Assembly: GCA_016125475.1 (NCBI GenBank)
Contig: WGLR01000011.1
Location: 6,780 to 70,779, forward strand
DNA: 64,000 nt
Direction: 5' to 3'
Origin: Betaproteobacteria bacterium
GTDB lineage: Bacteria; Pseudomonadota; Gammaproteobacteria; Burkholderiales; Ga0077523
Shown here one piece after another: positions 14,090 through 49,970 of the stretch; within the stretch, counting starts at the first letter, position 1; each line of letters opens with the position of its first letter. A model generated the notes under the pieces. It was given only the letters and a program-made list of their open reading frames with translations, had not been told where the DNA came from and did not search any database. The translations under genes and the position numbers were made by a program.

Positions 14090-14165
14090 GCCCCGGTAGC
14101 TCAGTGGATAGAGCAACCCCCTCCTAAGGGGTAGGTCACACGTTCGATTCGTGTTCGGGGCGCCA
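14090..14165 (+). tRNA. tRNA-Arg (anticodon CCT)
   Basis: Hand-folded 76-nt cloverleaf: acceptor GCCCCGG/TCGGGGC, D arm GCTC/GAGC, anticodon stem ACCCC/GGGGT with loop CTCCTAA, T arm ACACG-TTCGATT-CGTGT, encoded CCA. Confidence 0.9.
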
Positions 14166-30898: not shown

Positions 30899-30975
30899 TG
30901 GGGTGGCGGATGGGACTCGAACCCACGACAACCGGAATCACAATCCGGGACTCTACCAACTGAGCTACCGCCACC
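30899..30975 (-). tRNA. tRNA-His (anticodon GTG)
   Basis: 77 nt with the extra 5' G(-1). Anticodon stem CCGGA/TCCGG, loop TTGTGAT, discriminator C, encoded CCA. Confidence 0.92.
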
Positions 30976-31075
30976 ATCGAAGGACACTGCTGCGAGCAGC
31001 CCCGTCGAGGGCGCGGAGTATGACCAAAACCCCGGTCGCTGTAAACCGATCCTGCAACGGAACGTCGGGAGCGGC

Positions 31076-31152
31076 TGGCGTGCCCGGAGGGGATCGAACC
31101 CCCAACCCCCGGCTTAGAAGGCCGGTGCTCTATCCGATTGAGCTACGGGCAC
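31076..31152 (-). tRNA. tRNA-Arg (anticodon TCT)
   Basis: 77-nt cloverleaf. Acceptor GTGCCCG/CGGGCAC, anticodon stem CCGGC/GCCGG, loop CTTCTAA, encoded CCA. Confidence 0.92.
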
Positions 31153-31180
31153 CGTGCGCGCCCCTCGCACAGCGGGACGG

Positions 31181-31260
<80 letters not shown>

Positions 31261-32514: not shown

Positions 32515-34968
<2,454 letters not shown>

Positions 34969-35619: not shown

Positions 35620-36549
35620 ATGGAACAACCATCGACACCAGAGAAACGAGTCATGAACGCCGCATACGCTGATCTCTCGGAATTCACTTCCCCCTCCGTC
35701 GACGCGACTCCGGGTTTCATGGGCGCACTGGAGCAATTCCGGTCGCGAAGCGCCGAAGCCTCCTGGAAGGAGTTCGTGAGAACGTCGCCGCTCGTCAGAC
35801 AGTGGCGCTTCTTTCTATCGCACGATCCATACACGCGCTGGGGTCTGGTCAAGCCACGAGGTTATCCCGGCGACGCGACGCTCATGGACTTCGCGTACCG
35901 GCACCCTTCGGTCGAACGCCATGTCGCGGACGCGAGCACGCTGGGCCGTTCGATATATGAAATCACCCAGGGTGCGCCGCAGTCCAGGTCCGCCCGTGAT
36001 CGGGTCGACATGATGAGAAAGAGGCTGGTCGAAGCGGACTCCCGCGGGCCCGTGCACGTCGTCTCGCTCGCTTGCGGTCATGCGCGCGAACTCGAGAACC
36101 TTGATAACGAAGACATCGAGTTTGGCAGCATCACGTTCCTGGACAACGACCCTCTGTCCCTGTCGATCGCGTCGACTGCGCACGACGCCGCGGTGACTCG
36201 CCCCATCAGAATCAATGTCGTCAAGGAACCTCTGCCGCGCCTTCCCGAGGCACATATCGTATATGCCATGGGGCTCTTCGACTACCTGACGGACACCTAC
36301 GCAACGGACGTCACGAGGAAGATGCTCGCCCTGCTGAAGCCCGGTGGATCCTGCATCATCGGCAATCTCGATCCCGGTGCCGCCAACCTCGGCTACTGCG
36401 AGGCCATGATGGACTGGTGGATGATCGTTCGCGACAGCCAGGCACTGCTCGATCTGGGCAAAACCGCGGCGAGCGCGGTGGCAGGAACGTTCAGTTGCAC
36501 CGTCGAAAGATCAGGATGTTTCAATTACCTGACGATTGCACGCACGTGA
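35620..36549 (+). CDS. class I SAM-dependent methyltransferase with ~130-aa N-terminal extension
   Basis: Rossmann-type SAM motif VVSLACGHARE, acidic FLDNDP, and a post-motif GGSCIIGN. The N-terminal region contains KPRGYPGDATLMDFAY. Alternative start 35653. Confidence 0.75.
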   Translation: MEQPSTPEKRVMNAAYADLSEFTSPSVDATPGFMGALEQFRSRSAEASWKEFVRTSPLVRQWRFFLSHDPYTRWGLVKPRGYPGDATLMDFAYRHPSVERHVADASTLGRSIYEITQGAPQSRSARDRVDMMRKRLVEADSRGPVHVVSLACGHARELENLDNEDIEFGSITFLDNDPLSLSIASTAHDAAVTRPIRINVVKEPLPRLPEAHIVYAMGLFDYLTDTYATDVTRKMLALLKPGGSCIIGNLDPGAANLGYCEAMMDWWMIVRDSQALLDLGKTAASAVAGTFSCTVERSGCFNYLTIART

Positions 36550-36599
36550 ATTGACCCGAGAAGCCTGATCTGGAACGCGCACGCGCCCCCTGTCCGCCC

Positions 36600-38273
36600 A
36601 TGCTCCTCCCCCATCTCCTCGCGTCCCGCACAGCCGCGGTGAACCTGTGGCACGGACGGAACACACTCGAAACCTGGGATGCATCCCACCTGCGCGGCCG
36701 CGTCGCCCAATGGGCGACGGGACTCTACGACCTTGGCGTCCGACCTGGGTCGGTCGTGGCAACCGCCGCTCCGACGTCTCTCGAACTGATCGCCTCGCTG
36801 ATTGCCGCCTGGTACTGCGGCGCTGCAGTCACCGTCCTCCCGGAGCCTGTCGGCGCCGGCACGGCCGGCGAGCATCGCTTCCTCGAGGGCTTGGAAGCTA
36901 CCGAGCCGGAATTCCTGATCACATCAAAGGACTTCGGCGCCGTCGTCCCGGAATCGGTCACCGTCGCCGACCTTGCCCGGGTACCGTCCGTTGCCTCCGC
37001 ACCGCACCAGACTGGCCCCCGGGGCCCATGTCTGCCGGTAATCACCGGCTCCAGGTCCGTCGCCCTCCTGCAACTGACTTCGGGTAGTACCGGGCGATCG
37101 AAAGTCGTTCCCGTCACCCACGAGATGCTCCTCGCGAACTGCCAGGCGTCCTCCCGTCGCGCCGCGATCAACAGCGCTGACCACATGGTGAGCTGGCTGC
37201 CGTTGACTCACGACATGGGATTCTCCGGCGCCTTCGTTCACGCTCTCGTGAACGACATCGAACTCACGCTCATCCCCACGGAGCAATTCGCCCGATTTCC
37301 ACTCTGCCTTCTTCAGGCAATTTCACACACTCGAGCGACGCTTTCCCCAAACCCGCCCTCTGCCTACGGCATCCTTGCAAGATTTTCAGGAAGGGCGATC
37401 GCGGAGAACCTCGACCTCTCCACCTGGCGTTATGCATGGGTCGGCGCCGAGCCAGTCTTCGCCAACATTCTCGAGCGGTTCGAGACTTCGATGCGGCCCG
37501 TCGGCCTCCGCTCCAACACGCTCAAACCATCGTACGGCATGGCGGAAGCGGTCGTCGCGATCACGGCGCCGGCCTCCGGACCACCGTGGCAAGGATTGTC
37601 CATAAGAGCCGACGCGCTGCGTATGCAAGGCCTTGCGATCCCGTGTGACCGCGGGTCTCCCGACGCAATCGTGCTTGTCTCCAACGGCCCCCCCCTCGAC
37701 GGAATCGACGTCAAGGTCTGCGACGACTCCGGCACGCCCCTACCAGATGGTCATCAGGGTGTGCTGTGGGCGCGGGGCGCGTCCGTCCTCACGAGGTATC
37801 TGAATGGCGAAGATGGCTCCCGATTCGTGAACGGCTGGTACGAAACCGGCGACATCGGCTTCCTGTGGCAAGGAGAGGTGTACGTGTCGGGGCGCGCCAA
37901 GGATCTGATCGCAAGAGGCGGCATCAAGATCGGGGCAAGAGAAATCGAATGTGTCGTGGAGGAGGTACTCGGCCTGCACTACGGTCGAGTGGCGGCCTTT
38001 TCCTATTGCGACCACGTCATCTCACGAGAACGCGTCATCGTCCTGATTTCACGAAACTCCGGGGGTAGTGACGCAGCCGGGAGCCGCGAGATCGCCGAGA
38101 TCATCACTCGAACCTGCGGAATCCAGATCGATGAGGTGTCTTTTTGTGGTCCCGGACATTTTCCGAGAACCACCAGCGGGAAACTGCGCCGCAGCGAAAT
38201 TCGCCAGCGGTGGGAATGTGGCGAGTTTCGTACGCGATCGTCAGCACACCAATATGACACACTCGCTCTTTGA
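36600..38273 (+). CDS. fatty-acyl-AMP ligase (FAAL) / acyl-ACP synthetase-like adenylating enzyme
   Basis: AMP-binding motifs LQLTSGSTGRSK, SYGMAEA, YETGDIGF, GRAKDLI and C-terminal SGKLRR. The pattern resembles FadD32-type FAALs rather than CoA ligases (inference). Confidence 0.85.
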   Translation: MLLPHLLASRTAAVNLWHGRNTLETWDASHLRGRVAQWATGLYDLGVRPGSVVATAAPTSLELIASLIAAWYCGAAVTVLPEPVGAGTAGEHRFLEGLEATEPEFLITSKDFGAVVPESVTVADLARVPSVASAPHQTGPRGPCLPVITGSRSVALLQLTSGSTGRSKVVPVTHEMLLANCQASSRRAAINSADHMVSWLPLTHDMGFSGAFVHALVNDIELTLIPTEQFARFPLCLLQAISHTRATLSPNPPSAYGILARFSGRAIAENLDLSTWRYAWVGAEPVFANILERFETSMRPVGLRSNTLKPSYGMAEAVVAITAPASGPPWQGLSIRADALRMQGLAIPCDRGSPDAIVLVSNGPPLDGIDVKVCDDSGTPLPDGHQGVLWARGASVLTRYLNGEDGSRFVNGWYETGDIGFLWQGEVYVSGRAKDLIARGGIKIGAREIECVVEEVLGLHYGRVAAFSYCDHVISRERVIVLISRNSGGSDAAGSREIAEIITRTCGIQIDEVSFCGPGHFPRTTSGKLRRSEIRQRWECGEFRTRSSAHQYDTLAL

Positions 38274-38520
38274 TCAACTCGTCGCCAGGATCCGAGAAGA
38301 CGCAACACATGGCGCCTTGCCTGCATTTCTTCAGGTCGCATCCATTTCTCCGGACATGACGCTTGACGAACTGGGCATGGACTCCCTGGGACGCATGTAT
38401 CTTCTGACGATGCTCCTGGAACTGAGCGACGCCCCCCTTTCGGAAGAAGCGTTCCTGCCGCAACGAACGCTCCGGGAGATCGTTGAATTCGTCGACACCG
38501 CGATGCACGTGCCCAGGTGA
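38254..38520 (+). CDS. acyl carrier protein
   Basis: 88 aa. LDELGMDSLGRMYL contains the DSL phosphopantetheine-attachment serine. The ATG lies 20 nt inside the 3' end of the FAAL gene. Confidence 0.8.
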   Translation: MTHSLFDQLVARIREDATHGALPAFLQVASISPDMTLDELGMDSLGRMYLLTMLLELSDAPLSEEAFLPQRTLREIVEFVDTAMHVPR

Positions 38521-39584
38521 ACACTTCCCCCGAGACGACCGTCCAGCATCCCCAGCGCAGCGCTCTCCGCGCCGCACTGGCCCAGTACGCGAGCCCGAGT
38601 ACAACGCTTGCTCTCTTCTGGGTCGCCGTCGATTCGACGGCGTTCATTCTGGCGAGCGCAGCAGCGGTCTCTGCATCGAGTCTAGTCTGGAAATCATTGG
38701 CCTCTGTCGGCGTCGGCATCATGATCGCCCGCCTGTTCATCATCGGCCATGATGCGTGCCACCATGCCCTGACACGGCACCGGGCATTGAACAGACTCGT
38801 GGGGCGTTTGACCTTCCTCCCCTCGTTGACGCCATTCAGCCTCTGGGATCTCGGCCACAATCAGGCACATCACGGGTTCACGAACCTGAATCCCCGAGAC
38901 GCCGTCTGGGCGCCACTCTCGGCCGATGACTTTGGAGCGCTCTCTCCCCGGAGAAGACGGATGGAATGCCTCTACAGGAGCGGATGGGCACCCGCCGTCT
39001 ACTACGTCATGGAGATCTGGTGGAAGAAACTCATCTTCCCCCGGGTCGACCAAATCGGCAGCTACCGCAGCATTTACGGGAGAGACAGTCTCCTGGTTTC
39101 AGCCTTTGCCGTGGCTTGGGTGACACTGGTGGCCGTGTCGGCATACGGCTCGAATGGGTCGATCACCGAGGCGCTGTTCTTCGCCTGCTTCCTTCCGCTG
39201 CTGTTCTGGAGCTGGCTGATGGGTTTCATCATCTATATCCACCATACCGATCCATCCATTGCGTGGTTCAGGGACGTGACAGCCTGGGCAGCATCGCAGC
39301 CGTACCTTACCGCTACGCTATATGTGGAGTGCCCGATACTGGACAGTCTCCTTCACAACATCCTTCAGCATCCCGCGCACCATCTGAACATGACGATCCC
39401 ATTTTACCGTCTGAAGGCCGCGCAGAAACGATTGCAGGACATCGTTCCAGAGTATATTCGAACCAGGCGGCTGACCTGGTCGTACTACTGGCGGGTCGCG
39501 GAGCAGTGCAAACTCTACGATTACGACAATCGTCGATGGCAGCCGTTTTCCGCAATAACGCGTGAGCATCACGAAAGCGCCTGA
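38517..39584 (+). CDS. membrane fatty-acid desaturase-family di-iron enzyme
   Basis: GTG start overlapping the ACP stop (GTGA). Three histidine boxes, HDACHH, HNQAHH and HPAHH, with TM segments between them. Confidence 0.85.
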   Translation: MNTSPETTVQHPQRSALRAALAQYASPSTTLALFWVAVDSTAFILASAAAVSASSLVWKSLASVGVGIMIARLFIIGHDACHHALTRHRALNRLVGRLTFLPSLTPFSLWDLGHNQAHHGFTNLNPRDAVWAPLSADDFGALSPRRRRMECLYRSGWAPAVYYVMEIWWKKLIFPRVDQIGSYRSIYGRDSLLVSAFAVAWVTLVAVSAYGSNGSITEALFFACFLPLLFWSWLMGFIIYIHHTDPSIAWFRDVTAWAASQPYLTATLYVECPILDSLLHNILQHPAHHLNMTIPFYRLKAAQKRLQDIVPEYIRTRRLTWSYYWRVAEQCKLYDYDNRRWQPFSAITREHHESA

Positions 39585-39922
39585 TGTCCGACTGCCGATC
39601 CTCCGGGGCCCGGGCTCTCGCTCCGTCGAAACACCGCAATGCACGGGCGAGGTCTTGGCTCACGCGCCGACGTCAATGCAGGCACGCTCCCGCCTTGAGA
39701 CGTGTTGCGTGAACACGGTCGACTCCGCTCTTTTGGATGGATGCCCCCGAAAGCTTGTAATGATTTCCCGAAAAATATTCAGTAACGCGCGCCGCCGCAC
39801 CGAACCTGTCATTTCGCCGGCGGGCGGAGTCGGCCCGCCTTCGGTGGTCGGAGCCAAAGGGCTTTTCCGAGACGGCTCGCACGACGAATCCGGGACAGCC
39901 CAGACGGATCCAGATCGTTAGA

Positions 39923-41047
39923 TCAGGTGATCCGAGACGCAGGAAGGCTCACCAACAGTCGTACGAGTTCCGACTGTCTGTTGGTAGAAGTCTTTTCAAG
40001 AACCTTACGCAATTGCGATCGAGCGGTGGCAACCGAAATGCCCGTTTCGCTCGCGCAGTCCTCGACGGTCTTCCCATGTGCAAGTCTCCGCGCGAGTCTC
40101 GCCTCGGCCGGCGACAAACCAAAGAGCTGGCGCAACTGGGATTCGGTCAACATGCGTTGATGGTTTCGTCGCCGCAAGAGAATGATGGCAGACGGGCGGC
40201 AAAGCAGGGACGGCAGAGTCGCGGACTCCTGGATGGGTGCAACTGTCAGGTACAGGTCTTCTCCACGACCACTGCGATCCAGGACGGGAATACTCGAGGA
40301 ATGTCCCCGGCGTGCGGCACGCTGCAACGCTTCGCGCAAGGAATGCGCGATGTTCCCGTCGCTTGCCGTGAACACTCCCTGTTTGACGGCAACCTCGGCT
40401 GAAGACCGGACAATTGCCTCAGCTTGGCGGTTCGCATACAGCACGCGCCCCTGCCCGTCCAGTGCGAGCACCGCGATCTCCATCTGATCGAGGCCACTTT
40501 CACCGAGAACCGCTCGACGTCTGAGTTGCTCGGTCTGTACGAACAAGGCGTTCGCCCGGGTGAAATGCCCCCAGACACGACGCGCCCGCTCCAGTTCTTC
40601 CCTCGAATATCCGCCTCGGTCATGCGCCCGAAGCATTCCCAGAACCGTATGGACGCCTTCCTCGACGGGTGCGGTCCCGCCGATTGACCAGCAGACACCG
40701 TTTCGGATCAGAAAATCTTGGAAGAACTCGTTCTTCTCCACGAATGGGCGATCGAAATGTTCCTGTACGACGAAGAACTGCCCTGGCGCTACCGCAACGG
40801 CCTTCGGCCGGATCGGATCCACCTTGCTGTAATACGCCTCCCATTGCTGCATGGTATCGAGATAGTGATCGTTCGACACCAGTGACACTCTGGCGCGACC
40901 CTCGTTCTGATCCCACGCATAGAAGTGGAATTCTGACGAGCCTATCCATCGCCCGAAATCAAGCAGTGCCGGCCGCCATAGGTCAGGATTGATGGCCGCC
41001 TCATAGATCTGCCCCACGATGCGGTCCAGCTCGTCGTTTTCATTCAT
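39923..41047 (-). CDS. LuxR-family transcriptional regulator with ~300-aa non-receiver N-terminal sensor region
   Basis: C-terminal GerE/LuxR HTH (LSPAEARLARRLAHGKTVEDCASETGISVATARSQLRKVLEKT). The N-terminus shows neither a phospho-acceptor pattern nor an obvious AHL-binding signature. Confidence 0.85.
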   Translation of the reverse strand: MNENDELDRIVGQIYEAAINPDLWRPALLDFGRWIGSSEFHFYAWDQNEGRARVSLVSNDHYLDTMQQWEAYYSKVDPIRPKAVAVAPGQFFVVQEHFDRPFVEKNEFFQDFLIRNGVCWSIGGTAPVEEGVHTVLGMLRAHDRGGYSREELERARRVWGHFTRANALFVQTEQLRRRAVLGESGLDQMEIAVLALDGQGRVLYANRQAEAIVRSSAEVAVKQGVFTASDGNIAHSLREALQRAARRGHSSSIPVLDRSGRGEDLYLTVAPIQESATLPSLLCRPSAIILLRRRNHQRMLTESQLRQLFGLSPAEARLARRLAHGKTVEDCASETGISVATARSQLRKVLEKTSTNRQSELVRLLVSLPASRIT

Positions 41048-41930
41048 CGCCTGGTGGTCCTCATCGAGAGAATTGTCATCGACCTTAGGAGACGCACGCC
41101 TTGCGCAAGCCTGCTATTCCGTTGTCACTTTCCGAATCTGCGCACGAACGGTTCGTACGTTCGAGTTCTCGGAGTTCATCGCAGAGGTTTGTCATATTCC
41201 GTCATGTCACACTTAAGAACTCATGGCGTGACCAAGACCGCGCGCGAAACATGCAAAACATTCACGATGACCTTGTCTGTCACGCTTGATCCACCTTGCC
41301 CTCGGATTCAACCTGCACAAGAAATCTGTCCGAACGTCAGTTCAGTCGCACCTGCTCTCCTCTATATTCATTAAAACCAAAAACGGCTCTGTCCGCGTCA
41401 TCCATTTTGATTAGATGAAATGTCCTCAGAGACACTCTGGCGATCATCTTTAAGCGCGATTCACCGTGGGTCACCTCCCTGTTACGACGAACACGAACTC
41501 GGACGACAGGAAAGTCCTTCCAAGCGTGTCATCCGCAATGTTGACGATTCGCAAAGTTTTCGTCCCGGATAATTTCCGGGACGTAGCCAACCTTTCTGCA
41601 TGAACTGGCCCGATGACACCGATTCCTTCCAGAACGAAAGACATGTCATGAATCTTTCTGCAGCATGCGCCTGCGACCATCCTCCCGAAGCAGGTGAGAC
41701 CACGCGAATCGAGGGTCTCATTCGCCCGATCTGGACAACGCAAAGGAATGGCCAGTTTCATCGCCCCAATTCGCTTCGCAGTCGGCCTCCGTTAACCGCG
41801 TCCGCCATGAGATCAGGCAGCTTTATCCTGAAGACGCGATCACATCCGTTGTCATCTTCGAGGCATGTCACTCCGCCTCCCCACTAATTTCCGGTGTAGC
41901 GCCCAGAAGATTCACCGAGCGAGAAGTCCA

Positions 41931-44297
41931 ATGCAGGCCATAGATTCCCGTCTCTCTTCACTTTCCGAATACACAGATTCCGATGACCCTGATCTGTTCA
42001 GGAAGGCGGAGGTTCTTGCCAGCTTCCATGAGGACGCTTCGACACGCGTATTTCTCAAGTACCTGGTTTCAATCAGCCGCCACAACGGCGGTCGCGCCGT
42101 CGTTCGGGATCCGACCGACGAGCGGGAGGTACTCGTCTTCTGCCTCGCCGACTACCTGGACCTTGCCCGGGACCCACGAACCATAGAAGCAGCGTGCAAA
42201 GCGACGGTCGAGAAAGGTCTGGGCGTCTACTCGGTACCGTGCATCGCCGGTTCCACCGACTTCCATCGCGAACTCGAGCGCGAGATCGCCGCTTTCGTCG
42301 GCGCTGAGGACTGCATCGTCTTTCCAACGGGCCAGGCGGCAAATTCGGCATCGATCACGGCCCTGTGCGGTGCCCGGGACTACATAGTCATCGACAAGCA
42401 GGTTCACGCAAGCGTTCTGGAAGGCGCGAGGCTCTCGGGTGCGAAGTTGCGGACGTTTCGCCACTCCGATCCTGACCATCTCGACGGGGTGCTCGGTGCC
42501 ATCCGGAATCGCGGCCACCGTCGGGGAATTCTCGTCATTGCCGAGGGTGTATACGGCCTGGATGGCGATGTGTCACCAGTCTCGACTCTCCACCACGTTT
42601 GCCATCGTCACGGCGCGCGGCTGTTCGTGGATGACGCCCACGGCACTGGCGTTCTCGGAGGCCGGGGGGCCGGCACCCACGACTTCTTCGGGACAAGGTG
42701 TCCGGACATTCTCAAGGGCTCGCTGAGCAAGAGCTTCGGCAGTGTCGGCGGGTGGATCGCAGCGAACCGCGAGGTGGTGTCCTATCTGAGGTTCTACTGC
42801 GACAGGCTGGTCTTGTCCGTGGGAGCAACTTTGGGTGCCGTCGCAGCCGCTAAGGCTTCTCTTCGCATCGTGGAGGGCGAACCCGCGAGGCGCCGGCGCC
42901 TACAGGAAAACGCCCGATATCTTCGTGACAGCCTGATCGCCATCGGAGTACCCAATGCGGCGATATCTTCGTCCGCGATCGTATCAATCCGAATCGACGA
43001 TGAACCCGCGCTTCGCGACCTGGTGAAGGAAGCCTACGACGCCGGACTGTGGATCGAAGGATTGCCGCATCCGGCCACAATGCTCGGTCAGGAACGCATT
43101 CGCCTGCGGGTGCGAGCATCCCACACCCGTGACGATATCTTCGATGCAGTCAGAATACTCGAGCGTTGCCTGGGTGCACGAGCTATGCTCGGTTCCAGAA
43201 AGCACACGATCCCTTCTACACCGGTCTCCAGGGAACCCGACGCGGCAGGCATCGTATCGCTGGTAATTCGCGAGGCTGATGCGAAGACGCTGAGACTCCC
43301 CTGGGCGACGATCGATTCCTTTTCAAAGATCGTCCACGCCGCGGGTTTCTGGAAAGATGCCATCGGCAACCACAAGTGGTTTACCGCGTCGACGCAGGGT
43401 CAGTTCAGCGCATGTCTGTGCGCTTCAATTCTGAAAATGGACGATGGCTTGCCGGTCGGCGCCCTCGGCCACATGCACTGGCTACCGGAGTGCGAAAACC
43501 TCATCAACAGACTGGTGGACGACGCATCGGGCTGGCTCTTCGCGAATGGGCCTCGCCGCATTATCGGACCGGCTCAGGTCCCGATTCAGGTGCTTGGCGC
43601 CGGCGTCTCCACGTCCATCCGCAACGACCTGCCATTCCTGGAGCCTTCCCTCGATCCACGGGTTCGCGAGGTACTGGAAAGGAAAGGATTCAAAACGGAG
43701 CTTCGACATACATATCGTCTGGTGAGCCTTGAAGGCTCTTCCATCCCGGACGATGCCGACACGCTGACGGACATTACATTCAGGCCGATCAGGCGGGAAT
43801 ATCTGACTGACGACACGCGCGCCCTCGCGAATGCCTTCAACCATGGCATTTCACGGTTGGGATACTGCAGCCGGCTCTCCGCGGATGTTCTGATAGGCGC
43901 CGCATACGAAATGCGCGAACTCGTCCTGCCGGACCTGTGGTGCCTGGCGATTGACGGACGAGGCGATGTCGTAGGCTTCGCGGGCGGCTTTCCCGATCTG
44001 CGCGTAGCCTTCCAGGATATCGGCGGAGCGGGCAAAATCTCGGACATCGATTACCTGAGGACCGCTACGGACAGTTGCACGCGTGGCTTCCTCGCATGGG
44101 CCAGCACCTCGGATCGCCCCGGCCACAGTGGCGCCGGCCGAGCAGCGTGTGCGCGTGTACTCCGTGCCATGAAAGCCCGCGGGTTCCGGGAAGCATGGAT
44201 CTCCTGGGAACTCGTAGATGGCGGACCGATTCAGTTCGACCATCTACCGACCCTGTCCACAATCACTCTGGACATCCTGAGCCGCAAGGCAGGTTAG
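41931..44297 (+). CDS. PLP-dependent alpha-oxoamine synthase (AONS/Spt/CqsA family) fused to ~370-aa C-terminal GNAT-like domain
   Basis: The N-terminal ~420 aa have class-II aminotransferase blocks: FPTGQAANSA, DDAHGTG, and the PLP-lysine context GSLSKSFG (K codon 42729-42731). The C-terminal part (about 43200-44297) has an RPGHSGAGRAACARVLRAMKARGF segment reminiscent of GNAT motif A. Alternative start 41865. Confidence 0.8.
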   Translation: MQAIDSRLSSLSEYTDSDDPDLFRKAEVLASFHEDASTRVFLKYLVSISRHNGGRAVVRDPTDEREVLVFCLADYLDLARDPRTIEAACKATVEKGLGVYSVPCIAGSTDFHRELEREIAAFVGAEDCIVFPTGQAANSASITALCGARDYIVIDKQVHASVLEGARLSGAKLRTFRHSDPDHLDGVLGAIRNRGHRRGILVIAEGVYGLDGDVSPVSTLHHVCHRHGARLFVDDAHGTGVLGGRGAGTHDFFGTRCPDILKGSLSKSFGSVGGWIAANREVVSYLRFYCDRLVLSVGATLGAVAAAKASLRIVEGEPARRRRLQENARYLRDSLIAIGVPNAAISSSAIVSIRIDDEPALRDLVKEAYDAGLWIEGLPHPATMLGQERIRLRVRASHTRDDIFDAVRILERCLGARAMLGSRKHTIPSTPVSREPDAAGIVSLVIREADAKTLRLPWATIDSFSKIVHAAGFWKDAIGNHKWFTASTQGQFSACLCASILKMDDGLPVGALGHMHWLPECENLINRLVDDASGWLFANGPRRIIGPAQVPIQVLGAGVSTSIRNDLPFLEPSLDPRVREVLERKGFKTELRHTYRLVSLEGSSIPDDADTLTDITFRPIRREYLTDDTRALANAFNHGISRLGYCSRLSADVLIGAAYEMRELVLPDLWCLAIDGRGDVVGFAGGFPDLRVAFQDIGGAGKISDIDYLRTATDSCTRGFLAWASTSDRPGHSGAGRAACARVLRAMKARGFREAWISWELVDGGPIQFDHLPTLSTITLDILSRKAG

Positions 44298-44651
44298 CCG
44301 GCGATACTCAGTTCTCGCAGACCGCGCTTACCGTCGCTCCGACACGATTCGGGCCGATCTGCGAGTACATGGCCCGGGTTGCAGGCCGAAAGGGTGTTGC
44401 TGCGGCTTTGACCACTCGACTGGTCCGGTTGTCGCGGAGAGTCGGTACGCTGCCTGAAGTGAAATTCCGCATTACACCGTGGTCAGTCTAACCGGCACGG
44501 GCCGACCAGTTCACTGCCCATGTCGTGGTCAGGCCACTTGTTCGCTTTCCAGCCATACAAGAAGAGCACGAACCGGAGGAACTCTTTCCTACGCTCCCGG
44601 CGAACACTTTGAATGAACGCTCGAGAATACCGCGTAAGCGACTGTTTTTAC

Positions 44652-44739
44652 TGGCGGAGGCGGTGAGATTCGAACTCACGAACGGTTGCCCGTTGCCGGT
44701 TTTCAAGACCGGTGCAATCGACCACTCTGCCACGCCTCC
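44652..44739 (-). tRNA. tRNA-Ser (anticodon TGA)
   Basis: 88-nt class II tRNA. Acceptor GGAGGCG/CGCCTCC, anticodon stem CCGGT/ACCGG, loop CTTGAAA, 16-nt variable arm, encoded CCA. Confidence 0.9.
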
Positions 44740-48089: not shown

Positions 48090-49970
48090 ATGCAGACATT
48101 GAAGATCGAGAAACTCAGGAGACCCGAAGTCGAACTCAACGCGCCCGTCTGGGTCACGAATCAGGCACTGAAGGACTGGGTCGCCCAGGTTGCCGGGCTG
48201 ACACGGCCCGACACGATCGTGTGGTGCGACGGTAGTCAGCATGAGTACGACAGGTTCTGCGGCGAGCTGGTGGACGCGGGGACCCTCCGCCGCCTGAATC
48301 CGGAGAAGCGTCCCGGGAGCTTCGCCTGCTTTTCGGATCCGAGCGACGTGGCCCGGGTCGAAGACCGGACCTTCATCTGCTCCGTGCACCGCCACGACGC
48401 CGGCCCGACGAACAACTGGGTCGCCCCGGACGAAATGAAGTCGCGCCTGATCGAGCTGTTCGACGGATGCATGCGTGGCAGGACCATGTACGTGGTTCAG
48501 TTCAGCATGGGGCCCATCGGTTCCCCGCTCTCCCATATCGGTGTCGAGATCACGGATTCGGCTTACGTTGCGGTGAGCATGCGCGTGATGACGCGCATGG
48601 GCCGCGCTGCCCTGGAAGCCCTTGGTGCCACCGGCGACTTTGTGCCGTGCCTGCATTCGGTCGGTGCCCCGCTCGCCCCGGGTCAGGCGGACGTGCCCTG
48701 GCCGTGCAACAAGGACCAGAAGTACATCGTGCATTTCCCCGAAGAGAACGCCATCTGGTCCTTCGGGAGCGGGTATGGCGGCAACGCGCTGCTCGGCAAG
48801 AAGTGCTTCGCACTGCGCATCGCGTCCAGCATGGGACGGGAGCAGGGCTGGCTCGCCGAGCACATGCTGATCCTCGGCGTGCAGTCACCACAGGGAGACA
48901 AGAGCTACGTCGCCGCAGCCTTCCCGAGTGCCTGCGGCAAGACGAACTTCGCGATGCTGATCCCGCCACCGGCCTTCGATGGCTGGAAGGTCACGACGAT
49001 CGGTGACGACATCGCCTGGATCAAGCCGGGTCCGGACGGCCGGCTCTACGCGATCAATCCGGAATTCGGATTCTTCGGCGTCGCACCGGGGACGTCCTAT
49101 CAGTCGAACCCGAATGCCATGGACACGCTTCGGGCGAACTGCATCTTCACGAACGTCGCACTCACGGACGACGGCGACGTCTGGTGGGAAGGCATGACCG
49201 AGCAGGCCCCTGCCCACCTCATCGACTGGCAGGGCAACGACTGGACGCCGGACTGCGGGCGCAAGGCAGCCCATCCGAATGCCCGGTTCACCGCACCGGC
49301 GAACCAGTGCCCTTCCCTGGATCCCGACTGGGAAGATCCGTCCGGCGTGCCGATCTCCGCATTCATCTTCGGTGGCCGCCGCAGTACGACCATGCCGCTC
49401 GTGGTCGAGAGCTTCAATTGGACCGACGGCGTGTACATGGCCGCGACGATGGGTTCCGAGACGACGGCCGCGGCCGCGCACAAGGTCGGAGAAGTACGGC
49501 GCGACCCGTTCGCGATGCTGCCCTTCTGCGGCTATCACATCGGCGACTACTTCGATCACTGGCTCGAAATGGGCCACAGGGCCGCGAAGGCACCGCGCAT
49601 CTTCTGCGTGAACTGGTTCCGCAAAGGGGACGACGGCAGGTTTCTCTGGCCGGGCTACGGGGAAAACATGCGAGTGCTGAAGTGGATCGTCGATCGCTGC
49701 GCGGGTCGCGCGAATGCCGTCGAAAGCCTGCTCGGCTGGACCCCCTCGGAATCGGACATCGTCTGGGACGGCCTTCCCGAGACCGTGCGCGAGGCTTTCC
49801 GTCAGTGCATGACCCTGAGCCGTGACGACTGGCTGCGGGAACTGCTTCTGCACGAAGAACTCTTCGTGAAACTCTACGACCGCTTGCCCAAGGAGTTCGT
49901 CCTGAAGCGGGAGCTGTTGCTCGCAGGCCTCTGGCGTGCCCCTGAAACATGGGTTCCGCACGCGGCCTGA
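48090..49970 (+). CDS. pckG: phosphoenolpyruvate carboxykinase (GTP)
   Basis: 626 aa. The P-loop/kinase-1a region [10 protein letters not shown], plus WMRF-type and FGGRR blocks of GTP-PEPCK. Confidence 0.95.

What the first reader, a model, noticed from the sequence alone, without database searches (positions are those of the whole stretch)
41931..44297. Unusual fusion protein: alpha-oxoamine synthase domain joined to a ~370-aa GNAT-like C-terminal domain
Seen:
- Residues about 60-440 (ORF numbering from 41865) carry class-II aminotransferase/AOS blocks, including DDAHGTG and the PLP-lysine context GSLSKSFG (Lys codon 42729-42731).
- After a short linker (about nt 43185-43260) the ORF continues for about 365 aa with no AOS similarity.
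- The tail ends in RPGHSGAGRAACARVLRAMKARGF-REAWISWE, which resembles the GNAT acyl-CoA-binding motif A (R/Q-x-x-G-x-G/A).

Established:
- Stand-alone AONS, Spt, CqsA and LqsA are about 380-420 aa.
- In bacterial ceramide synthesis as described for Caulobacter, Spt is followed by a GNAT-related N-acyltransferase (bCerS) that acts before the keto-reduction step. This is my recollection and needs verifying.

Inference: a covalent Spt-like::N-acyltransferase fusion would channel the aminoketone straight into N-acylation, giving an oxidised ceramide-like or N-acyl-aminoketone product. Alternatively the tail could be a regulatory or substrate-delivery domain.
Basis: partly seen in the sequence, partly recalled or inferred. 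Interest (0 to 1): 0.85.

Follow-up and report, generated by a model that had tools for sequence, protein, structure and literature searches.

The report
Fused aminoketone synthase and ceramide-synthase-like acyltransferase
One 788-residue protein joins the enzyme type that starts bacterial sphingolipid synthesis to a relative of the bacterial ceramide synthase that does the next step, so it probably makes a ceramide-like keto-lipid on its own, and it gives genomic support for a disputed order of steps in bacterial ceramide synthesis.

Summary
The gene at 41931-44297 (+) encodes a 788-aa protein. Its N-terminal half is a complete alpha-oxoamine synthase (AOS) domain. A roughly 14-residue flexible linker joins it to a 352-aa tail. 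The tail models as a tandem GNAT fold.

The tail is homologous over its full length to E. coli BL21 YghO, the orthologue of Caulobacter ceramide synthase bCerS/CC_1154 (profile-profile probability 99.9%, E 1.9e-33). 130 of the proteins in the set retrieved with the tail profile, chiefly its free-standing ~365-390-aa relatives, match YghO.

The fusion is not an artefact. About 25 diverged relatives share the architecture, and their AOS domains form one clade (bootstrap 86%).

The gene lies in a low-GC island next to tRNA-Ser. The island also holds a fatty acyl-AMP ligase, an 88-aa carrier protein, a desaturase, a methyltransferase and a divergent PAS/LuxR-type regulator. The ligase and carrier protein recur beside or fused to the enzyme elsewhere. 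No ceramide-reductase homologue lies in any locus.

The most likely function is activation of a fatty acid onto the carrier protein, condensation with an amino acid to an aminoketone, and immediate N-acylation to an oxidised-ceramide-like lipid.

The AOS domain is not a recognised Spt. The amino acid, the acyl donor and the product's role are unknown.

I rate it a new variant of a known kind.

The parts
41931..44297 (+). Gene for the 788-aa fusion protein (AOS domain, linker, YghO/bCerS-like tandem-GNAT domain). The alternative upstream ATG is at 41865.
42111..43166 (+). Alpha-oxoamine synthase domain (residues 61-412). It holds His159, Asp234/Asp235, His237, the PLP-binding Lys267 (codon 42729-42731) and Arg389/391/393.
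43188..43238 (+). Interdomain linker (residues 420-436). It is variable among relatives and has pLDDT below 50.
43239..44294 (+). Tandem-GNAT tail (residues 437-788), homologous over both halves to YghO/bCerS. Motif-A loop GHSGAG lies within 44115-44186, FPD at 43989-44012 and WISWEL at 44193-44213. An invariant loop, GPAQVPIQVLGAGV, lies at 43566-43607.
36600..38273 (+). Fatty acyl-AMP ligase / acyl-ACP synthetase-like enzyme (557 aa). It is 28.5% identical over 554 aa to the E. coli BL21 ligase in the AasR position of the spt cluster.
38254..38520 (+). Dedicated acyl carrier protein (88 aa, motif LGMDSL). The gene overlaps the ligase stop codon and the desaturase start codon.
38517..39584 (+). 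Membrane fatty-acid desaturase family protein (355 aa), probably a tailoring enzyme for the acyl chain.
35620..36549 (+). SAM-dependent methyltransferase-like protein (309 aa). The Pfam hits are weak and below the cut-off. It is the first gene of the low-GC block.
39923..41047 (-). PAS_4 plus LuxR/GerE-type HTH regulator (374 aa), divergent from the fusion gene. Homologues lie near the fusion gene in two other loci.
44652..44739 (-). tRNA-Ser(tga) 355 bp downstream of the fusion gene, probably the boundary of the low-GC island.

Best explanation
The protein is a two-step lipid synthase on one polypeptide.

Proposed steps (all inferred from homology and context):
1. The neighbouring fatty acyl-AMP ligase loads a fatty acid onto the dedicated 88-aa carrier protein.
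2. The desaturase possibly modifies the chain.
3. The N-terminal PLP-dependent alpha-oxoamine synthase domain condenses the acyl-thioester with an amino acid. This is a decarboxylative Claisen reaction, as in Spt, and gives a long-chain alpha-aminoketone.
4. The C-terminal tandem-GNAT domain, a divergent member of the YghO/bCerS ceramide-synthase family, N-acylates the new amine. This happens before any keto-reduction and gives an N-acyl-aminoketone, that is an 'oxidised ceramide'-like two-chain lipid.

Shown here: domain identities, homology to YghO, conservation of the fusion, and recurrence of the ligase and carrier protein.

Inferred only: substrate flow, chain lengths, the amino acid, the acyl donor, and the product's role. 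The role may be a specialised envelope lipid or a signal under control of the adjacent LuxR-type regulator.
For: AOS half:
- It is complete, with the catalytic His, Asp..His, Lys and Arg residues invariant across 11 relatives.

Tail:
- The model is a tandem GNAT.
- 8 of 11 relatives hit Pfam GNAT.
- The tail profile finds 1379 proteins. 130 of the proteins in the BLAST set of retrieved sequences match E. coli YghO, the best at 30-49% identity over the full length.
- hhalign of the tail family against the YghO family gives 99.9%, E 1.9e-33, over 288 columns.
- yghO is listed with CC_1154 as the N-acyltransferase gene of the cluster (PMC9386255), and CC_1154 is the ceramide N-acyltransferase CerS (PMC11324152).
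- bCerS is placed before CerR in the pathway (PMC11087976).

Ligase and carrier protein:
- The window ligase is 28.5% identical to the E. coli BL21 ligase in the AasR position, E 4e-60.
- The carrier protein hits PP-binding at E 1.3e-7.
- The same ligase and carrier protein follow the fusion gene in L016/L017.
- They are fused N-terminally to it in Pirellulaceae proteins of 1500-1670 aa.
- This mirrors the aasR-acpR-spt linkage of proteobacterial sphingolipid synthesis.

Unit inheritance:
- AOS domains of all tail-bearing proteins form one clade, bootstrap 86%. The two domains have therefore been inherited together.

No reductase:
- No CerR homologue lies in the window or in any related locus.
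Against: - The AOS domain is not an Spt by NCBIfam cut-offs. Spt models score 182-244 bits against cut-offs of 500-670, and bioF scores highest at 272. It branches apart from E. coli Spt.
- Identity between the tail and YghO is only about 21%.
- Motif A is degenerate in part of the family.
- The nearest solved structures all use acetyl-CoA, so a short acyl group cannot be excluded.
- The full-length model shows a flexible linker and pTM 0.58, so there is no structural evidence for channelling.
- A reductase could be encoded elsewhere in the genome.
- No biochemical data exist for any member.
Confidence: 0.6

Rival explanations
1. The tail N-acetylates, or adds another short acyl group to, the aminoketone. 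The product would then be a single-chain N-acetyl-aminoketone, stabilised against dimerisation. It would act as a diffusible signal or antibiotic, following alaremycin AlmA/AlmB logic, and might be sensed by the adjacent PAS/LuxR-type regulator.
For: - The best Foldseek matches are acetyl-CoA-dependent tandem GNATs: GlcN N-acetyltransferase 5kf1, MshD and Eis.
- The window copy has a near-canonical pyrophosphate loop, GHSGAG.
- An AOS followed by an N-acetyltransferase is proven for alaremycin (PMC12006855).
- Regulators or sensor kinases lie next to several family members.
Against: - The tail's specific relatives are the YghO/bCerS family. The held papers call this family an acyl-CoA N-acyltransferase; that its donor is long-chain is my recollection.
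- No bCerS structure is in the PDB, so the Foldseek ranking is uninformative about the donor.
- Close homologues of the regulator occur without the enzyme.
Confidence: 0.2
2. The tail is not a catalyst acting on the AOS product. It could be a degenerate GNAT that serves as a docking, membrane-association or regulatory module, or it could acylate an unrelated acceptor.
For: - Motif A is degenerate in P0005-P0009 and P0011.
- The window copy gives no Pfam hit.
- There is no confident interface with the AOS domain.
- bCerS is peripherally membrane-associated.
Against: - 34 invariant tail positions are kept across relatives that are 29-41% identical in the tail.
- Motifs are shared with the YghO family.
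- YghO itself has a degenerate motif A, yet the held papers treat its family as the ceramide N-acyltransferase.
- AOS and tail have been co-inherited through three different architectures.
Confidence: 0.12
3. The tail transfers an aminoacyl group, as Fem-type enzymes do. The resulting N-aminoacyl-aminoketone would cyclise to an alkyl-pyrazinone signal, analogous to DPO, which would be read by the PAS/LuxR-type regulator.
For: - FemX and L-PGS appear among the Foldseek matches (ranks 41 and 44).
- A PAS plus LuxR-HTH regulator lies adjacent.
- The DPO/VqmA analogy is from my own knowledge and was not checked in papers.
Against: - TM-scores to the Fem-type folds are only 0.36-0.37, against about 0.6 for CoA-dependent tandem GNATs.
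- The specific homology is to YghO/bCerS.
- The regulator shows no sequence match to VqmA structures.
Confidence: 0.04
4. The long ORF is an assembly or frameshift artefact that joins two genes.
For: None was found.
Against: - The sequence is identical in a second assembly.
- The codon-position GC pattern is continuous across the junction.
- About 25 relatives at 37-58% AOS identity have the same order of domains, from different samples and phyla.
Confidence: 0.01

Closest known systems
Proteobacterial dihydroceramide pathway: AasR, AcpR, Spt, bCerS (CC_1154 / E. coli BL21 YghO) and CerR
   Same: - Both have a fatty acyl-AMP ligase-type activator, a dedicated carrier protein, an AOS condensing enzyme and a YghO-family tandem-GNAT N-acyltransferase.
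- In both, N-acylation is proposed to act on the keto-amine.
- The E. coli BL21 cluster (L026) has the same four functions within 6 kb.
   Different: - Here the AOS and the acyltransferase are one polypeptide.
- The AOS is outside the Spt models and clade.
- The tail is a divergent branch, about 21% identical to YghO.
- No CerR reductase lies nearby.
- A desaturase, a methyltransferase and a LuxR-type regulator are present instead.
- The locus is a rare accessory island rather than part of an envelope gene cluster with lptFG.
Alaremycin AlmA (ALA-synthase-like AOS) plus AlmB (N-acetyltransferase)
   Same: An AOS makes an alpha-aminoketone that is N-acylated in the next step (PMC12006855).
   Different: - The alaremycin enzymes are separate proteins.
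- The substrates there are succinyl-CoA and serine, and the donor is acetyl-CoA.
- No ligase or carrier protein is involved.
- Homology between AlmB and the tail was not tested.
CqsA/LqsA alpha-hydroxyketone autoinducer synthases
   Same: They are AOS-family enzymes that make fatty aminoketone-derived signals, and they are encoded next to their sensors.
   Different: - The NCBIfam CqsA model scores 157.7 bits against a cut-off of 428.
- CqsA and LqsA have no acyltransferase domain.
- Their partner is a histidine kinase, not a LuxR-type regulator.
SxtA-type loading modules (MT-GNAT-ACP-AONS) of saxitoxin synthesis (from my own knowledge)
   Same: A GNAT and an AOS are on one polypeptide, with a methyltransferase and a carrier protein in the same system.
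   Different: - The domain order is reversed.
- SxtA has a single GNAT that primes the carrier protein by decarboxylation, upstream of the AOS.
- Here a tandem GNAT of the bCerS family lies downstream of the AOS.

Membership tests
Alpha-oxoamine synthase (class II aminotransferase, PF00155) | Significant match to the family model over the whole domain | tested here: met
   PF00155 matches at E 1.1e-39 over residues 66-408. bioF, Kbl and Spt models match at E 1e-81 to 1e-72. PDB KBL, SPT and AONS match at E 1e-56 to 1e-47.
Alpha-oxoamine synthase (class II aminotransferase, PF00155) | PLP lysine, stacking His, Asp-x-x-His and carboxylate-binding Arg | tested here: met
   K267, H159, D234/D235, H237 and R389/R391/R393 are invariant in 11 relatives and align with the KBL residues.
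Serine palmitoyltransferase (Spt) | Score above the curated equivalog cut-off of an Spt model | tested here: not met
   SerpalmtaseCFB scores 244 bits (cut-off 640), BetaP 241 (500) and AlphaP 182 (670). bioF scores higher, at 272. E. coli BL21 Spt scores 599 on BetaP as a positive control.
Serine palmitoyltransferase (Spt) | Phylogenetic grouping with known Spt | tested here: not met
   In the NJ tree the tail-bearing AOS domains form their own clade (86%). E. coli Spt groups with other stand-alone proteins. Only one reference Spt was available.
Serine palmitoyltransferase (Spt) | Use of L-serine and a long-chain acyl thioester | not testable with these tools
   No specificity-determining residues could be assigned. 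The linkage to a ligase and a carrier protein suggests a fatty acyl-ACP substrate.
YghO / bCerS bacterial ceramide synthase family | Full-length homology to YghO/CC_1154-type proteins (both GNAT halves) | tested here: met
   hhalign gives 99.9%, E 1.9e-33, over 288 columns against the YghO-family alignment, and 98.0% against YghO alone. YghO matches 130 of the proteins in the set retrieved with the tail profile. The tail is a divergent branch.
YghO / bCerS bacterial ceramide synthase family | N-acylation of 3-ketosphinganine or a long-chain base with an acyl-CoA | not testable with these tools
   An enzyme assay is required.
YghO / bCerS bacterial ceramide synthase family | Genomic association with spt, acpR, aasR and cerR | tested here: inconclusive
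   An AOS (fused), a ligase and a carrier protein are present. No cerR homologue lies in the window or in any related locus. The rest of the genome was not available.
GNAT superfamily | GNAT fold | tested here: met
   The AF2 model has pLDDT 80.6. Foldseek finds tandem GNATs at E 2e-12 to 1e-8 with TM about 0.6.
GNAT superfamily | Motif A pyrophosphate loop Q/R-x-x-G-x-G/A | tested here: inconclusive
   The window copy has G-H-S-G-A-G and P0010 has Q-G-Q-G-V-G. The loop is degenerate in P0005-P0009 and P0011, and in YghO. The window copy alone gives no Pfam GNAT hit, but 8 of 11 relatives do.
CqsA/LqsA autoinducer synthase | Score above the cut-off of NF005526 | tested here: not met
   157.7 bits against a cut-off of 428.

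The most novel reading that the evidence does not exclude
The fusion enzyme, with its ligase, carrier protein, desaturase and methyltransferase, makes a previously unknown class of keto-ceramide-like or N-acyl-aminoketone lipid. This lipid would act as a cell-cell or envelope-stress signal rather than a bulk membrane lipid. The co-located 374-aa PAS/LuxR-type regulator would sense it, and in relatives PilZ/c-di-GMP and sensor kinases would take that role. Together these would form a new lipid-based signalling module carried on a mobile island.
Probability: 0.15. Interest if true: 0.85.

Novelty: new variant of a known kind. Interest (0 to 1): 0.66.

Why it matters
- Two groups disagree on whether bacterial ceramide synthase acylates the 3-keto product of Spt directly, or acts only after reduction. 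A natural, conserved fusion of an Spt-type condensing enzyme to a bCerS-type acyltransferase, in loci without a reductase, is independent comparative evidence for acylation before reduction.
- The fusion offers a single soluble protein on which the coupled reaction could be studied.
- It defines a rare, unnamed clade of AOS enzymes and links the poorly characterised YghO family to aminoketone chemistry beyond classical sphingolipids.
- It points to a small portable gene set (35620-44297) for making modified ceramide-like lipids.

Tried and rejected
- A word-indexed search with the tail alone found nothing. This was a sensitivity limit; the full-length query and the exhaustive profile search both worked.
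- Pfam and NCBIfam on the window tail gave no hits.
- A PDB sequence profile search gave only marginal RimI-type hits, E 0.05.
- tblastn of the tail against plasmids gave no match.
- Scans of genome contigs and metagenome contigs yielded only 3 loci each, so a statistical neighbourhood analysis was not possible.
- The primary bCerS paper (PMC8891067) is not held, and searches for 'bCerS' plus 'GNAT' returned false positives for BceRS.
- I tested the idea that the LuxR-type regulator is a dedicated receptor. Homologues lie near the enzyme in 3 loci, but the closest homologues, P0233 and P0236, lie in unrelated contexts. The link is therefore suggestive only.
- No att-type direct repeat of the tRNA-Ser was found.
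- The 883-bp upstream region shows no promoter-like site, terminator or inverted repeat.
- The full-length AF2 model did not give a confident domain arrangement.
- The source organism could not be identified. Core proteins have no relatives above 90% identity.
Full report
**1.

The + strand is open from 41865 to 44297. The protein on record in public collections starts at ATG 41931 and has 788 aa (P0001). The N-termini of relatives align with that start.

Residues 61-412 are a complete alpha-oxoamine synthase (AOS) domain:
- Pfam PF00155 matches at E 1.1e-39.
- NCBIfam models score bioF 272 bits, Kbl 255, Spt 244/241, ALAS 207 and CqsA 158.
- PDB KBL, SPT and AONS match at E 1e-56 to 1e-47.

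His159, Asp234/235, His237, Lys267 and Arg389/391/393 are invariant in 11 relatives.

A variable linker (residues 420-436) follows, and then a 352-aa tail. Taken alone, the tail hits nothing in Pfam or NCBIfam.

**2. The fusion is real**

- An independent assembly (Logan SRR10063241, L004) is identical over 6588 nt.
- The GC1/GC2/GC3 pattern stays in frame across the junction.
- Ten further protein clusters of 690-833 aa are 38-50% identical over 84-99% of the length.
- The exhaustive profile search adds more.

**3. What the tail is**

- The AF2 model of the tail (11-sequence alignment, pLDDT 80.6, pTM 0.81) has two GNAT halves.
- Foldseek's best PDB matches are tandem GNATs: GlcN N-acetyltransferase 5kf1, MAB_4324, MshD, CBG and Eis, at E 2e-12 to 1e-8 and TM about 0.6.
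- 8 of 11 family tails hit Pfam PF00583 in the C-terminal half.
- The quoted RPGHSGAG...KARGF stretch sits on beta4-loop-alpha3 of that half, which is the motif-A position.

A profile of the tail, searched against 1.84 billion representative proteins, found 1379 proteins at E of 1e-3 or better. Among them are many free-standing proteins of 365-390 aa named only 'GNAT family N-acetyltransferase'.

The key to the tail came from PMC9386255. E. coli BL21(DE3) carries the five dihydroceramide genes, and the paper lists yghO with Caulobacter CC_1154 under the N-acyltransferase gene ('aca'). PMC11324152 identifies CC_1154 as the N-acyltransferase CerS.

I fetched that BL21 region as L026. It holds yghO (380 aa), a fatty acyl-AMP ligase, an epimerase-family reductase, a carrier protein and spt. 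The comparisons were:
- hhalign of the tail family against YghO alone gives 98.0%, E 2.6e-13, over 305 columns.
- hhalign against an alignment of YghO plus 19 free-standing relatives gives 99.9%, E 1.9e-33, over 288 columns spanning both halves.
- BLASTP of YghO hits 130 of the proteins in the set of retrieved sequences, the best at 30-49% identity over the full length.
- tblastn of YghO directly matches the tail of the PilZ-type relative at E 2.6e-20.

By contrast, the same tail profile reaches only E 0.05 against any solved structure. The tail is therefore a divergent member of the YghO/bCerS family, at about 21% identity, and not merely 'a GNAT'.

**4. The AOS half**

It passes no curated family cut-off. 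The closest AOS proteins without a tail, P0019/20/25/30, lean towards Spt models but are also below cut-off.

In a neighbour-joining tree (66 domains, 363 columns, 300 bootstraps):
- Every tail-bearing AOS, plus one tail-less derivative (P0012), forms one clade with 86% support, or 92% without the PilZ pair.
- E. coli Spt, BioF and Kbl all fall outside that clade.

Identity to the window protein is 37-58% in the AOS half and 21-42% in the tail. The pair has been inherited as a unit.

**5. Architectures and neighbours**

Three architectures share the AOS-tail core:
- the plain form of about 800 aa;
- ligase-carrier protein-AOS-tail proteins of 1500-1670 aa in Pirellulaceae MAGs (L002/L003, P0066, P0070, P0074);
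- PilZ-AOS-tail proteins of 919-933 aa.

In the window, upstream on the same strand, the genes are:
- a methyltransferase-like gene (35620-36549);
- a fatty acyl-AMP ligase (36600-38273), whose best NCBIfam models are FAAL/MbtM-type, and which is 28.5% identical to the BL21 ligase in the AasR position at E 4e-60;
- an 88-aa carrier protein that ORF lists had missed (38254-38520, LGMDSL, PP-binding E 1.3e-7), overlapping both of its neighbours;
- a membrane desaturase (38517-39584).

A PAS_4/LuxR-HTH regulator (39923-41047, minus strand) is divergent from the fusion gene.

In other loci:
- In L016/L017 the order is LuxR-type regulator, fusion gene, ligase, carrier protein. Two further paralogues of the window regulator (47-48% identity) lie upstream.
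- The Burkholderiales MAG locus L001 has a 27%-identical regulator.
- Other loci carry a FadL-type channel with an XRE regulator, an overlapping methyltransferase, an OmpR/TPR regulator, or GAF kinases with GGDEF-EAL.
- The nearest regulator homologues elsewhere are not next to the enzyme. The regulator link is therefore only suggestive.

No CerR-type reductase lies in the window or in any related locus.

The whole block 35620-44297 has GC 0.57-0.63 against 0.64-0.66 in the flanks. It ends 355 bp from tRNA-Ser. This points to an accessory island, although no att repeat was found.

**6. Mechanism**

The best-supported reading has three steps:
1. The ligase loads a fatty acid onto the dedicated carrier protein, as AasR does with AcpR. 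The desaturase may act on the carrier-bound chain, as JamB does (PMC10088813).
2. The AOS domain condenses the acyl thioester with an amino acid to give an alpha-aminoketone.
3. The bCerS-like tail N-acylates the aminoketone at the keto stage.

This matches the 'acylation before reduction' order proposed for Caulobacter. AOS followed by N-acylation also has a biochemical precedent in alaremycin.

Several points are not shown:
- the amino acid;
- the donor, whether long-chain acyl or acetyl;
- channelling, because the full-length model has a disordered linker and pTM 0.58;
- the biological role.

**7. Comparison and novelty**

The parts are known kinds: an AOS, a YghO/bCerS-type acyltransferase, and a ligase/carrier-protein pair.

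These features are new:
- the covalent fusion;
- a separate AOS clade;
- a divergent tail;
- loss of the reductase;
- different tailoring and regulatory partners.

No held paper combines 'oxoamine synthase', 'GNAT' and 'fusion'. No listed paper links 'bacterial ceramide synthase' with 'fused' or 'bifunctional'. The ISME survey of Spt/bCerS/CerR does not mention fusions. The primary bCerS paper could not be read, so prior mention there cannot be excluded.

**Verdict**

This is a new variant of a known kind. It is rare, with about 30 representative clusters at E of 1e-30 or better, fragments included, among 1.84 billion. It is of real interest to bacterial sphingolipid biochemistry.

Noticed in passing
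window 35620-44739: The whole gene block has lower GC (0.57-0.63) than the flanks (0.64-0.66). It abuts tRNA-Ser(tga) at 44652-44739 (-). It is likely a horizontally acquired island, but no direct repeat of the tRNA end was found.
   Followed up: partly
window 38254-38520: An 88-aa acyl carrier protein gene is hidden in the overlap between the ligase and desaturase genes. Its ATG lies 20 nt before the ligase stop, and its own stop overlaps the GTG start of the desaturase. Length-filtered ORF selection misses it.
   Followed up: yes
L002 530-5272; L003; P0066, P0070, P0074: Pirellulaceae MAGs encode single proteins of 1500-1670 aa with the order fatty acyl-AMP ligase, carrier protein, AOS, YghO-like tail. 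This puts the whole pathway in one chain.
   Followed up: partly
L015 808-3609 (P0080); P0082: PilZ (c-di-GMP-binding) domain fused in front of the AOS-tail core. Downstream are a GAF histidine kinase, a hybrid kinase and a GGDEF-EAL protein.
   Followed up: partly
P0049 (799 aa): A different AOS-acyltransferase fusion: the AOS is joined to PF13480 (Acetyltransf_6, FemAB-like) instead of the YghO-like tail.
   Followed up: no
P0087 (784 aa): Two YghO-like tandem-GNAT units in one protein. The C-terminal unit is 35% identical to E. coli YghO over its full length.
   Followed up: no
L024 1096-2586 (P0012): An AOS that belongs to the fused clade (50% identity) but lacks the tail. Only a doubtful remnant (E 0.028) lies about 1.4 kb downstream. 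This may be a decayed or split locus.
   Followed up: partly
L012 6653-9140 (P0094): A free-standing YghO-like protein overlaps the end of a class-III aminotransferase gene and precedes 7TM-HisKA sensor kinases. It is another pairing of an amine-forming PLP enzyme with this acyltransferase family.
   Followed up: no
window 39923-41047 (-); L016 739-1860, 1927-3054, 3491-4663; L001 5075-6196: A family of LuxR/CsgD-type regulators of about 370-390 aa. The N-terminal ~180 residues match no known domain or solved structure. Three paralogues sit in one AOS-tail locus, but close homologues also occur next to trypsin-like proteases and Fic proteins.
   Followed up: partly
window 41048-41930: The 883-bp divergent intergenic region has the lowest GC in the block (0.525). 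Simple scans find no sigma-70-like promoter, terminator or inverted repeat. Other gene callers annotate small ORFs there.
   Followed up: partly
window 30899-31260 and 14090-14165: A cluster of tRNA-His, tRNA-Arg(tct) and tRNA-Pro genes lies on the minus strand, and a separate tRNA-Arg(cct) on the plus strand. KatG (32773-34968) and a GTP-dependent PEPCK (48090-49970) flank the island.
   Followed up: no
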